From the NCBI GenBank assembly GCA_963770835.1, contig CAVYRH010000010.1, positions 151,266 through 215,265 on the forward strand: a DNA stretch of 64,000 bases. The letters are read 5' to 3'. This document shows positions 60,001 through 63,000 of this stretch, piece by piece. The stretch is from an uncultured Pseudomonadota bacterium (GTDB taxonomy: Bacteria > Oederibacteriota > Muellerivitia > Muellerivitales > Muellerivitaceae). The position numbers were made by a program. Positions within the stretch are counted from its first letter, which is position 1. The number at the start of each line of letters is the position of its first letter.

Positions 60001-63000
60001 AAACCGCGAAATCTTTTATTGTCAAATGGATCCAGCAAAGGGGTCACAGCAAAGGGGTCAGGCCTACATTTTCCACTTTAAACTTCAAACCCCAATTCCC
60101 GTAACAATTTGAGCCCTTCTGTCCATAACCTGCACAATAGCTGTCCTCTTAAAGCCTTTACCCTCCCTTTAAACCTCTTTTTACAAAAGAACTCTGGAAA
60201 TCCTGAAAAGCTCAATTTATCTTTCATGAAACGACCCGGTTTAAACGGGTTGGAAATATTGATATGGAGGCCCTATATGTCCGTCCAAAAACCCGCCTTG
60301 CAGGTCATTGAAATCCCCGTCGATAAAATCCTCCCCAACCCGGATAACCCCCGGGGGCCGATTGATCCTGAAGACGCCAAAACCATGGCCGAGTCCCTCA
60401 TCGAAGAAGGCCAAAAGGACGAGGTGCGGGTGAGGCACCTGACCGAGGCCGAAGAGGCCCGGCACCCGGGCTATGAATGGTTCATGATAGGCGGCCATCG
60501 GCGGCTGGCGGGGGCCAAGCTGGCGGGCTTACCCACCCTGCGGGCCATCGTGGTGGAAGCGAGCACCCCAGAACAGGAGTTTTTGGATGCCCTTTTGGAC
60601 AATCGCTCGGAAGACATGGGCTGGTGGAAGTGGGACTTGGCCATTGAGAAGGTCCTCAAGCCCGCCAACGGGGAGGGCCAAAGGAAGCTGGCGGCCCAAC
60701 TGGGGTATAACCCGGCAAAGATAAATAGGGCCTGGAAGATCACCCAGGCTTTGAGCCCCGCCGCACGGGCTTTGGTGGAGGAAAGTGTTGCGCCGCGCAA
60801 CACCCAAAATAAGGGTTTTTTGATAACTGAGAGCATCCTGCTGGCTTTGGCCGACCTGGAGGACCCCCAGGAGGTCGAAAAGGCCCTGACCCGGGTGGTG
60901 GAAGACAAGATGACCGAATCCCAGGTCCGCCAGATGGTCGCAAACCTCAAGGGTGGGTTGGCCACGGCCCAAACCGCCCCTAAAGCAAGCCAACAACCTG
61001 GGATCACCCCCTCGGCAACCAGCCCAAAAGCAAACCAACAACCCACTTCACCCTCATCCCTTCCTTCTCCCCTAAAGGGAGAAGGGGAAGGCAAGGCTGC
61101 GGGCAAGGGGGCAGTCGCCGGGTTATTAGCCGGACTGTTTAAAAGGCACAGCGGGCATTCCAAACAAGCGGCGCCGGGATGGGGAGGGGTGGGGAAGTTC
61201 CTGTCCCAGAACTTCAAGCGGGCCCTGGGCACCCTCGCCCGGCGGTGGATGGTCCAAGGCTTGGCGGTCATCGTCATAGTCCTTCTCATCAGCCCCCATT
61301 TGCCCTTCTCCCTCTATCACCTGGTATCCGGTTCCATTTCTTCCCAACCGAAGGCGGCCGGCTTCCAGGCACCCCAGGGGAAAACCCAAGCCACAGCCCA
61401 AGCCTTGGTTTTGCCGGCTTCTGGGCTGAGGTCTCAAACCGAAGCCCAAGGTTTGAATGTACCAATTCCTGAGAAACAGGGAATTGGTAACCAAGGGGTT
61501 TCAACTCCGAAATCTCTATCCCCCGAAGCCTTGGCGAAGGGGGACAAACACCACACTTCGAACTCGGCCCAGGTAGTTCCTTCCTGGGCTAGGGAAGAGC
61601 GCATTTTCGCCGCCGAATTCGGAAGCCGCTTTTACGGCGTCAATGCCCAGAATTGGGACGATACCCAAAACTATTTCATCGACCACCTCAACCCTTCCTA
61701 CTTGGCCCCTTTCCTTCACCAGTATTTCGGGGCGGATTTCACAAATCAGGTGCGGCATCATAACCTGGCTTATTCCCTCGATGGCGCCCAGTCCCAGTTC
61801 CTGCGGATGAAGGGGGGCTCGGGGATATTCTTGTTCAAGGGCCTGCAAACCAAGGAGGGGGATGGGCAATCCCCCGTAAGCCTACCCGTTGCCCTGGTCA
61901 TTCAAATCCAGCACCACCCGGACGGGAATAGCCTGGTGGAAAAGGTAACGGTTGTGAATCCCGGGGAAGAAGGGGACCAGGCCGAAAAAACAGACGGGTC
62001 CGCGAAGGGGGACCTGTCTCCCGGAGCTGGAGCGGTAGCGGGAGGTTCAGCGAAGGGAGAAGACCCGCTCAAGGCCGTGAGTGATAGGGTGAAGGATGTT
62101 CAAGGCGCGGTCAACACGGCCAATGACGCCAAATCGGCTGCCGATAAGGCAAGGGCCCTGTTTGGGTTTTAATGGTGGCCGACCAAGAAACGGGATTGCT
62201 TGTCCACGACGGGGACCCTTCGTGGACAGCAAAAGTGGTGAAAAATATTCTGTGTAAAAGGAGGATCGCATGAAAACCAGTTATCTTAAAATCGGAATCT
62301 TGACGGGGCTTTTTTCCCTTATCCTCCCAAACCTTTTGGCCCAAACAGTCGTATCCACCCCTACTGCCTCCCCAGTCACTATTTTTAGCACCCCGGAAAG
62401 TAAACCTAAAAGTCCATATCAAATTTACCGTTTAAAACAGTATCAAGTTGAAATGGCATATCTCCCCGCTAAGTTGATTCCGGACCCCGAGTACGACACC
62501 TTTTAATCAAAAGATTTTCAAACCTACATCACTTTCTGGAAACTCCAGAAAATTCCGGGTAAAACTTGGGAGGATGAGTTTCCCCGTATGATTAGCCTTC
62601 TACGCCAACTGGGCAATCAAATAACTTATAAGGTTTTCAAAAAGAACTTCTTTGTAATATCGGGCTATAAGGGTGACAGTGTTATCTATTGGAAAATAAT
62701 TCCAACAGAACGAGACTTTTTCAAGGTCACGGTCTCGGTGGACGGTGAGGCGCTCATCACGCTTCCAAACTACCGCTTGGTTCAAACCGAGAAGGGGTTG
62801 AAGGTAGACGCCGCAATCCACGAGGTCAAGAAGGCGAAGGAACAAGGTGGCAAGCCGGAATTCATCAAGTGCTACTACCCCTTCAACAACCTCAACGACG
62901 AGGTTCTGCCCGAAGCCGAAAAAGTCTTCAAGTCTCTCCCGGTGAAAAAGGGAAAGTAAGAGGAACGGCCCCGCCGGGGGCCTTATACCCGGCAATTAGT

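What a model noticed while it worked through the whole genome (the two positions that open the first line are those of the whole stretch)
60277..62172. Orphan ParB-type CTPases fused through a membrane helix to a VirB8/DotI-like domain
g02364 (and g02009 on C8:85670-87682) joins a ParB CTPase-HTH region with an intact GxRR motif to a transmembrane helix and a periplasmic domain with the fold of the type IV secretion proteins VirB8/DotI. At least nine related ParB-like genes, several split or truncated, are dispersed without parA, one directly upstream of a cassette array. A DNA clamp fused to a T4SS inner-membrane subunit would tether DNA to a transfer channel.
Evidence so far: ParB_N E 1e-6 and 3e-11; hydrophobic helix at residues 328 and 388 (KD 2.2-2.4, call 202); model of residues 411-576 pLDDT 78 (best of five, others about 50; call 204); the 12 top VIA matches among 48,161 chains are all VirB8/DotI/TraM-type, Z 14.1-11.6, rmsd 2.4-3.2. 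Paralog table; family in 10 of 18 class genomes, one outside full-length homologue with ParB. Search 203 found no paper.
(Added by a program. Inside this text positions count along the whole contig: contig position 151,266 is position 1 of the stretch shown here. "Call 12" and the like, gene names such as g00115 and contig names such as C1 are that model's own, and its searches are not shown. The text may have been shortened before it was handed on; [...] marks where a part breaks off. The agent that wrote the report below was given it as the finding of a first reader that could run no searches.)

Follow-up and report, generated by a model that had tools for sequence, protein, structure and literature searches.

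The report
Membrane-anchored ParB with conjugation-derived domain
One family of uncultured bacteria carries many lone genes that join a ParB-type DNA-binding head, a predicted membrane helix and a domain related to the conjugation protein VirB8, and these proteins likely bind DNA sites beside their own gene and hold that DNA at the cell membrane.

Summary
The fusion is real: ParB_N-HTH, a predicted transmembrane helix and a VirB8/DotI-fold domain. A 62-sequence model has pLDDT 92-94 in all five models, and the top 12 of 48,161 chains are VirB8-type. The domain is homologous to the VirB8-slot gene of conjugative elements in the same genomes. The full fusion occurs in 35 clusters at 50% identity, in one family only, under purifying selection. 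No parA, T4SS gene, relaxase-like gene or integrase lies in 47 loci. Heads and tails recombine separately: VirB8 tails are genome-specific and ParB heads are shared between genera. A subfamily lacking ParB_N carries helically phased, gene-specific repeat arrays upstream (8 of 8). Some ParB_N-bearing members, this one included, have one upstream palindrome. Best reading (0.45): a single-gene module that binds its own cis site and tethers that DNA to the inner membrane, using the borrowed VirB8 domain to self-associate. Docking on a conjugation channel (0.25) is not excluded, but half the carrier genomes lack a VirB4 match. CTP specificity is untested, and the catalytic Glu position is His here.

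The parts
60132..60146 (.). 15-bp palindrome GCACA-N5-TGTCC, 145 bp upstream of the start; candidate cis site (operator or loading site)
   Evidence: G[CG]ACA-N5-TGT[CG]C has 7 exact copies in the genome, one of them the C22 duplicate; the only intergenic ones lie before this gene and before the C26:622500 family member. Upstream of family genes: exact 4/45 vs 1/1160 background, <=1 mismatch 10/45 vs 9/1160, all ten 95-171 bp before the start. The motif was derived from these same sequences.
60277..62172 (+). ParB-HTH-TM-VirB8 fusion gene, 631 aa (P0001)
   Evidence: GGAGG ribosome site just upstream
60304..60603 (+). ParB N-terminal (CTPase-fold) domain, residues 10-109; box II GHRR, box III LLDN; no ParA-binding peptide
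   Evidence: Pfam PF02195 E 1.2e-6; alignment with chromosomal ParB; chromosomal ParB starts MAKKALGRGL
60613..60960 (+). ParB-type helix-turn-helix region, residues 113-228; the ParB C-terminal dimerisation-like segment seen in several paralogues is absent here
   Evidence: family HTH profile; HTH_ParB Pfam hits in relatives; segment X compared by eye with the chromosomal C-terminal domain, no profile hit
61044..61094 (.). genome-wide hairpin repeat read in frame inside the cytoplasmic linker
   Evidence: many intergenic copies by blastn; hairpin
61177..61314 (+). basic amphipathic stretch followed by the predicted transmembrane helix (about residues 324-346); predicted N-in, C-out
   Evidence: KD 2.17; net charge before the helix exceeds that after it in 29 of 37 full fusions
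61460..61545 (.). two further in-frame hairpin elements in the periplasmic linker
   Evidence: folds; similar peptides recur in linkers of relatives
61576..61971 (+). VirB8/DotI-fold (NTF2-like) periplasmic domain, residues 434-565
   Evidence: model pLDDT 93.8, pTM 0.89; VIA Z 14.9 to DotI, 14.7 to VirB8; homology to ICE VirB8-slot genes
62059..62169 (+). conserved C-terminal amphipathic tail ending in an aromatic residue; also left as a lone remnant twice on C14
62201..62228 (+). 28-bp hairpin repeat (11-6-11), first site of a cassette-like array, 28 bp after the stop codon
   Evidence: 83 sites in the genome; within 500 bp downstream of 8 of 46 family loci vs 68 of 3,730 genes in this genome (three of the eight loci are near-identical copies)

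Best explanation
This is a lone gene whose product joins a ParB-type DNA-binding head to a predicted inner-membrane helix and a VirB8-fold domain, and it likely binds a site just upstream of its own gene and tethers that DNA to the membrane without a ParA motor. Shown: the domain order, the homology of the tail to the VirB8 of conjugative elements in the same lineage, the lack of parA and T4SS genes nearby, purifying selection, and separate inheritance of heads and tails. Inferred: members with ParB_N load at one palindrome and spread as nucleotide-gated clamps. Members that lost ParB_N instead bind 7-28 helically phased repeats specific to each gene. The VirB8 domain, taken once from an ICE, now serves as a periplasmic self-association module shared by the paralogues of one cell, and in this protein it may stand in for the missing ParB dimerisation domain. 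The likely gain is to position and retain the gene's own island DNA, with autorepression as a by-product.
For: All 8 HTH-TM-VirB8 genes examined that lack ParB_N have upstream arrays. Six of 8 have >=7 copies of one 8-mer in 245 bp, against 0 of 51 ParB_N-type genes and 0 of 1,160 background regions; >=3 copies: 8/8, 2/51 and 11/1,160. 90 of 95 gaps lie within 1.6 bp of a multiple of 10.6, and each array's motif is absent or nearly absent from the other seven. A palindrome sits 95-171 bp upstream of 10 of 45 ParB_N-type genes and not at ICE promoters (34 ICE/IME loci, 661 kb). The nearest VirB8-domain neighbour is in the same genome for 26 of 31 genes, but for ParB_N only 11 of 31. N vs V8 identities are uncorrelated (rho 0.06, Mantel p 0.11); N vs HTH are correlated (rho 0.53, p 0.001). 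Median dN/dS is 0.31, 0.29 and 0.29 for the three domains. 0 of 47 loci hold parA or T4SS genes. VirB8 homologues act as multimers (PMC12857230, section 11).
Against: No binding, localisation or nucleotide assay exists. The palindrome was found post hoc and is present (<=1 mismatch) in only 10 of 45 ParB_N-type genes, across unlike HTH clades, so it may be bound by another regulator or mark an element boundary. Sites next to a promoter fit plain autoregulation too. 15 of 37 full fusions have two or more hydrophobic segments, so C-out topology is not certain for all. What tethering gains a chromosomal solo gene is not demonstrated. Per-genome clustering of tails could come from gene conversion alone.
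Confidence: 0.45

Rival explanations
1. Hitch-hiker adaptor: the VirB8 domain co-assembles into the T4SS of a co-resident ICE and the ParB head holds its own locus at the channel, raising its transfer rate, much as SGI1 swaps its own subunits into the IncC pore.
For: The tail is homologous to the VirB8-slot gene of both ICE types. This genome holds both types plus a coupling protein. Heads move between genera: 2.5 kb at 95.7% identity, including the 5' part of a family gene, is shared by G000 and G006. Partition proteins are known to couple DNA to conjugation machines (abstracts of PMC4949242 and PMC3098194).
Against: 5 of 10 carrier genomes (84-98% complete) have no VirB4 match, and 8 genomes with VirB4 have no fused-type domain (MAGs can lose ICEs). 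No relaxase-like gene, coupling protein or integrase in 47 loci. The ICE type 1 VirB8 domain is conserved across genera (dN/dS 0.08; closest pairs 91-100% identical), while fused domains form genome-specific clades (dN/dS 0.29) about 11% identical to it. The upstream palindrome is not at ICE promoters.
Confidence: 0.25
2. Membrane-tethered one-component regulator (ToxR/CadC-like topology with a KorB/VirB/BisD-type head): the periplasmic domain senses an envelope partner and the head controls its own and nearby promoters; DNA positioning is incidental.
For: Sites lie at promoter distance. Periplasmic modules are interchangeable: VirB8, a different ~270-aa domain with a weak PDZ hit (E 0.02), or none. 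An NTF2-like domain also occurs in the anti-sigma factor RsgI9 (VIA Z 10.4). Orphan ParBs that regulate genes are known (10.1101/2025.10.10.680097, passages).
Against: Arrays of up to 28 phased sites over 200-800 bp exceed what autorepression needs. No regulon was seen: the palindrome has no exact intergenic copy before other genes. Neighbouring genes are unrelated from locus to locus.
Confidence: 0.13
3. Anti-conjugation decoy or sensor: a host- or island-encoded VirB8 mimic that poisons or detects an assembling T4SS while the ParB head captures the mobile DNA.
For: Many diverged copies per genome lie in variable regions with toxin-antitoxin pairs, NYN and Mrr-like genes; copy number runs from 0 to over 10; present in genomes without a VirB4 match.
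Against: No PADLOC model beyond a ParB-like stretch of a methyltransferase profile. The cis sites point to the gene's own DNA, not foreign DNA. The tails are homogenised, not diversified, within a genome.
Confidence: 0.12
4. Decaying remnants of mobile elements with no current function.
For: 3 of the 5 VirB8-bearing loci in this genome are frameshifted, above the background of 6 of 139 conserved genes; stubs and an interrupted copy exist; linkers are full of repeat insertions.
Against: dN/dS about 0.3 in all three domains; 35 full-length clusters at 50% identity; repeat insertions keep the frame; the breaks look like one-base slips in an assembly whose thrS is also split.
Confidence: 0.05

Closest known systems
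VirB8/DotI/TraM family, especially GAMMA-class VirB8 (pIP501 TraM, pCF10 PrgD)
   Same: Single NTF2-like extracytoplasmic domain after a membrane helix, with a large cytoplasmic N-terminal part (class definition read in PMC12857230, section 11); same fold.
   Different: The cytoplasmic part is a ParB_N-HTH head; the gene is not in a T4SS operon (0 of 47 loci); there are many diverged copies per genome.
Noc (Bacillus subtilis nucleoid occlusion protein)
   Same: Orphan ParB without a ParA-binding motif that joins DNA clamping to the membrane (10.1101/2025.10.10.680097, passages).
   Different: Noc binds the membrane peripherally through an N-terminal amphipathic helix (recalled). This protein is predicted to span the membrane C-terminal to the HTH and has a periplasmic domain; it is multi-copy and horizontally moved.
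ParABS (ParB/Spo0J) and orphan ParB-CTPase fusions
   Same: ParB_N with GxxR, an HTH, and in some paralogues a C-terminal dimerisation-like segment.
   Different: No parA and no ParA-binding peptide; forms a clade apart from chromosomal and ICE ParBs (100/98); catalytic Glu position often His or Gln. The survey's section on fusions (section 7, read whole) names no membrane or VirB8 fusion, and 'transmembrane' and 'VirB8' occur 0 times in its main text; its supplements were not read.
R388 StbA with stbDRs (plasmid positioning by a DNA-binding protein and cis direct repeats)
   Same: A DNA-binding protein acts on cis direct repeats, and DNA position in the cell sets the balance of stability and conjugation (abstract and section titles of PMC3098194).
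   Different: StbA is not an integral membrane protein (recalled), lies in an operon beside oriT, and has no ParB_N or VirB8 domain.
SGI1 TraN/TraG/TraH (mobilisable island that remodels a helper T4SS)
   Same: T4SS subunit homologues encoded away from a T4SS operon (abstract of PMC5389848).
   Different: SGI1 has an integrase, an oriT and helper-activated promoters. None of these was found here, and SGI1 subunits are not fused to DNA-binding domains.
ARC6/PARC6 intermembrane-space domain; RsgI9 NTF2 domain
   Same: NTF2-like domains used outside secretion on membrane-spanning proteins (VIA Z 9.7 and 10.4; ESM feature leads 0.86-0.88).
   Different: They score 4-5 Z units below the best VirB8/DotI matches, and there is no sequence link, whereas the ICE VirB8 link is seen by sequence.

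Membership tests
VirB8/DotI-like domain | NTF2-like fold closest to VirB8-type structures | tested here: met
   VIA ranks 1-12 all VirB8-type, Z 14.9-12.0; best non-T4SS row 11.2; Foldseek top 10
VirB8/DotI-like domain | sequence homology to a T4SS operon VirB8 | tested here: met
   profile hits the ~198-aa gene after virB4 at E 2e-10 to 3e-7; hhalign 95.8%; second ICE type E 5e-7, which itself hits DotI_IcmL at E 0.0013; best member DotI_IcmL E 1.1e-5, below the curated cut-off
VirB8/DotI-like domain | membrane helix before an extracytoplasmic domain | tested here: met
   hydropathy and charge bias only; topology not shown experimentally
T4SS inner-membrane subunit (functional VirB8) | encoded in or beside a virB operon | tested here: not met
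   0 of 47 loci, 711 kb, 27 with >=5 kb on both sides
T4SS inner-membrane subunit (functional VirB8) | binds VirB4, VirB6 or VirB8 of the machine | not testable with these tools
ParABS ParB | ParB_N domain with GxxR motif | tested here: met
   PF02195 above cut-off; G73 and R76 invariant in a 17-row alignment; GxxR in 35 of 37 full fusions
ParABS ParB | cognate parA and N-terminal ParA-binding peptide | tested here: not met
   no ParA homologue in 47 loci; peptide absent
ParABS ParB | CTP binding, hydrolysis and clamp sliding | not testable with these tools
   Glu position of box II is His; sequence and AlphaFold3 do not predict nucleotide choice (10.1101/2025.10.10.680097, section 9)
ParABS ParB | cis centromere-like site | tested here: inconclusive
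   own palindrome or phased arrays found; binding untested; not compared with the parS consensus by a call
ParABS ParB | C-terminal dimerisation domain | tested here: inconclusive
   segment X resembles it by eye and is present in the C8 paralogue but not in this protein; its profile did not hit chromosomal ParB
Noc | N-terminal amphipathic membrane helix on a Spo0J paralogue | tested here: not met
   the membrane segment lies after the HTH; the clade is separate from chromosomal ParB; the Noc feature is recalled
Integrative mobilisable element (SGI1-like) | integrase, relaxase or oriT within the unit | tested here: not met
   no homologue of the lineage's integrase, coupling proteins or relaxase-like ORFs in 47 loci; DNA similarity between copies mostly ends 100-350 bp from the gene; oriT itself not searched

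The most novel reading that the evidence does not exclude
A new kind of minimal selfish module: one gene plus one cis site, encoding an integral-membrane ParB clamp that plugs through a captured VirB8 domain into conjugation machines and delivers its own DNA to them. Specificity heads are swapped onto a host-adapted tail, and loss of the CTPase domain is offset by phased repeat arrays.
Probability: 0.25. Interest if true: 0.9.

Novelty: new variant of a known kind. Interest (0 to 1): 0.74.

Why it matters
No integral-membrane ParB with a periplasmic secretion-system domain appeared in the papers searched. The family offers a natural test of what CTP-driven spreading buys a ParB: relatives with ParB_N have at most one short site, and relatives without it have long phased arrays. 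It also gives eight matched HTH-site pairs for a specificity code, shows a VirB8 domain reused outside its operon, and, if docking holds, a one-gene way to parasitise conjugation.

Tried and rejected
Pfam and NCBIfam gave nothing meaningful for this protein's own tail domain; PDB sequence searches with three profiles gave no significant hit. The ESM Atlas held no model for either query; its feature hits (unnamed 0.91-0.92, ARC6-like 0.86-0.88) are leads only. No relative in viral contigs. No plasmid match for an ICE VirB8-slot protein. The stand-alone 211-aa form gave one 5-kb metagenome locus without T4SS genes among the ORFs called. LexA box as the identity of the palindrome was rejected: lexA and recA carry a different motif. 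A generic NTF2 match was rejected by the Z gap and the sequence link. C22 as a paralogue was rejected (overlap duplicate). An integrase beside the 28-bp arrays was not found; of 9 of the 12 tyrosine recombinases checked, the nearest is an ICE-type integrase 1.4 kb from a lone site. No RNA holder was listed. Short-read contigs of four runs cover much of the gene in pieces and do not resolve the frameshifts elsewhere. Earlier-finding searches by place (near), sequence and words gave nothing on this family.
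Full report
Observation. Window 60277-62172 is one 631-aa frame. It holds ParB_N at residues 10-109 (E 1.2e-6), an HTH region to about 228, a low-complexity linker, a basic stretch and one hydrophobic helix at about 324-346 (KD 2.17), a second linker, a folded domain at 434-565 and a conserved tail. Both linkers contain hairpin elements read in frame, the first of them a genome-wide repeat. Contig C22 repeats this locus at 99.9% and is not a paralogue. The genome holds eleven further orphan loci, apart from the chromosomal parAB (C11) and an ICE parAB (C12).

The C-terminal fold. A profile of 23 tails was widened to 62 rows and folded. Five models scored pLDDT 92.2-93.8, pTM 0.89. 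Among 48,161 chains the first twelve are DotI, VirB8, TrwG, IcmL-like, TraM, TraE, CagV, TcpC-type and PrgL structures (Z 14.9-12.0). The best unrelated rows are a phage baseplate chain (11.2), RsgI9 (10.4) and ARC6 (9.7). All ten Foldseek hits at E<=0.001 are VirB8-like.

The domain comes from resident conjugative elements. The tail profile also hits about 198-aa single-helix genes at E 2e-10 to 3e-7. They lie directly after a VirB4-type ATPase (P-loop_TraG, E 6.7e-23) in a cluster with a TrbL/VirB6 gene (E 1.8e-7), near an integrase and, in three loci, a tRNA. The VirB2 and VirB3 labels rest on size and position only. Profile against profile gives 95.8%, E 6.8e-9, at 11% identity. A second ICE type, with parA-parB-coupling protein, has a slot gene that matches the tail profile (E 5e-7; weaker for this genome's copy, probability 48%) and DotI_IcmL (E 0.0013). 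DotI_IcmL is the family hit by most alignment members: 4 of 62, best E 1.1e-5, under the cut-off. In the tree, 48 fused-type domains stand apart from 10 ICE proteins (100/99, with long-branch warnings), which fits one capture followed by expansion.

Range. Relatives are labelled candidate division FCPU426. The tail matches 17 of 99 genomes of the phylum, all in one family. Of 116 hits among 1.84 billion 50% representatives, 35 carry ParB_N, HTH and the tail in one chain and 20 carry HTH and tail only; some of the latter are cut at contig ends. Median dN/dS (Nei-Gojobori, pairs >=55% identical, not independent) is 0.31 for ParB_N (31 pairs), 0.29 for HTH (47) and 0.29 for the tail (59). The reference values are 0.16 for chromosomal ParB (41) and 0.08 for ICE VirB8 (53).

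Context. In 47 tail-bearing loci (711 kb; 27 with >=5 kb on both sides) there is no homologue of ParA, VirB4, VirB6, the coupling proteins, the relaxase-like ORFs or the ICE integrase. 'Relaxase-like' is my reading from position and recalled motifs; those ORFs had no Pfam hit. The genes sit alone between unrelated genes, often near toxin-antitoxin pairs, and DNA similarity between copies mostly ends 100-350 bp from the gene. A VirB4 match is present in 15 of 32 class genomes. It is missing from G005, G020, G023, G024 and G025, five of the ten genomes with fused-type domains (G028, with only a stand-alone form, and a G008 fragment left out); eight genomes have VirB4 but no such domain.

Heads and tails are separate modules. 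The 52 orphan ParB rows form a group apart from chromosomal and ICE ParBs (100/98), with forms bearing and lacking the tail mixed. The nearest relative of a tail is in the same genome for 26 of 31 genes; for ParB_N it is 11 of 31 (chance about 0.12). Head and tail identities are uncorrelated (rho 0.06, p 0.11), while ParB_N and HTH travel together (rho 0.53, p 0.001). A 2.5-kb stretch with the 5' part of one gene is 95.7% identical between two genera. Other members end in a different periplasmic domain with a weak PDZ hit, in a helix alone, or have no helix. A tail that had to fit the conserved ICE machine should be conserved across genomes; a genome-specific tail fits self-association among paralogues, or plain gene conversion.

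Cis sites. All eight examined genes that begin at the HTH have upstream arrays of 7-28 copies of a 7-base motif over 200-800 bp. Gaps are helically phased in 90 of 95 cases, each motif is private to its gene, and no such array was found in this genome, where no such gene was found either. ParB_N-bearing genes lack arrays (0 of 51 with >=7 copies). Ten of 45 have instead a palindrome G[CG]ACA-N5-TGT[CG]C within one mismatch, against 9 of 1,160 background regions; eight near-duplicate, short or mis-started rows and the eight array genes were left out of that count. This gene has it exactly, at 60132-60146. It is not the LexA box and not at ICE promoters. The pattern is what a spreading clamp (one site) and a non-spreading binder (many phased sites) would need; binding is untested.

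The nucleotide site. G73, R76 and N109 are invariant in a 17-row alignment, but box II reads GHRR and box III LLDN. Only 13 of 37 full fusions keep Glu after the glycine. From established ParB biochemistry (recalled), loss of that Glu slows hydrolysis but not clamping. Nucleotide choice cannot be predicted from sequence (10.1101/2025.10.10.680097, section 9).

Broken copies. Three of five tail-bearing loci in this genome are frameshifted by what look like one-base slips. The background is 6 of 139 conserved genes, 0.047 per kb, including thrS. The family rate is higher, but multi-copy genes polish worse, so real decay and assembly error cannot be separated here.

Mechanism and odds. Most likely (0.45), the protein binds beside its own gene and tethers that DNA to the inner membrane, with the VirB8 domain as a self-association module. 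The rivals are docking on an ICE channel (0.25), a membrane-tethered regulator (0.13), an anti-conjugation decoy (0.12) and relics (0.05). No complex prediction could be run, so partner binding is open.

Literature. Searches for ParB with CTPase, fusion and transmembrane, ParB-CTPase fold with fusion, VirB8 with ParB, fused and ICE, and ParB with membrane-anchored, orphan and conjugative showed no description in their listings. Read: passages and sections 7 and 9 of 10.1101/2025.10.10.680097 (supplements not seen; they could list such proteins); passages and section 11 of PMC12857230; abstracts and outlines of PMC5389848, PMC3098194 and PMC4949242. Subscription journals are not covered.

Verdict. 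Observation confirmed; interpretation partly supported. This is an undescribed, lineage-restricted architecture built from known parts, with testable cis sites. Interest 0.74.

Noticed in passing
window 62201-62228; G000 C3, C4, C11, C12, C15, C17 and others; also in relatives: A 28-bp hairpin (11-bp arms, 6-bp asymmetric spacer) at 83 sites. All 51 neighbouring pairs under 4 kb share orientation, median spacing 991 bp, spacer GC 47%; only one site lies inside a called gene; no adjacent integrase was found. It looks like a cassette system with an unidentified recombinase, and the same few sequences follow the site at many places, as if insertion elements target it.
   Followed up: partly
L059, L129, L130, L132, L133 (G011); L139, L140, L142 (G005): HTH-TM-VirB8 genes without ParB_N, each preceded by its own iteron-like array at about 21.5-bp phase.
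   Followed up: yes
G000:C2 170-185 kb (L097, L098) and G000:C12 1-14.5 kb (L011); relatives L100-L111, L190: Two unannotated ICE types with compact virB6-B3-B4-B8 clusters followed by a TPR-GGDEF gene and SpoVG-like genes; most upstream genes have no Pfam hit and no VirB9/VirB10 was recognised.
   Followed up: partly
L178-L187: Recurrent module of small regulator, coupling protein, ~290-aa ORF without Pfam hit (probably a relaxase, by recalled motif), excisionase and integrase, also in genomes without a VirB4 match.
   Followed up: partly
L022, L175, L176, L177: Family members whose periplasmic part is a different ~270-aa domain with a weak PDZ hit; not found in G000.
   Followed up: partly
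L077 (G028:C27), P0072, P0079, P0096, L196: Stand-alone 207-211-aa helix-plus-VirB8 proteins; the one placed in the tree nests among the fused type, and the two short loci seen hold no T4SS gene.
   Followed up: partly
G000:C4 140.4 kb (lexA) and G000:C8 40.3 kb (recA): Both promoters carry a GTATAC-N4-GTAT(A/T)C-like dyad, a candidate LexA box for this lineage.
   Followed up: no
G000:C26:622500-624446 and C3:134.4-137.5 kb: Tandem ParB_N-HTH-ParB_N-HTH proteins without a membrane helix; the C3 copy is interrupted by a 347-aa ORF that looks like a transposase (recalled).
   Followed up: no
window 58802-60044: The Sel1/LprI gene upstream is not covered in four related runs, and one contig joins different DNA at 60045, so the upstream flank may vary between strains.
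   Followed up: no
G000 C10/C22, C12/C16, C3/C12/C25: Several contigs overlap or repeat each other around the arrays, and about 4% of conserved genes are frameshifted; copy counts in this assembly need care.
   Followed up: partly
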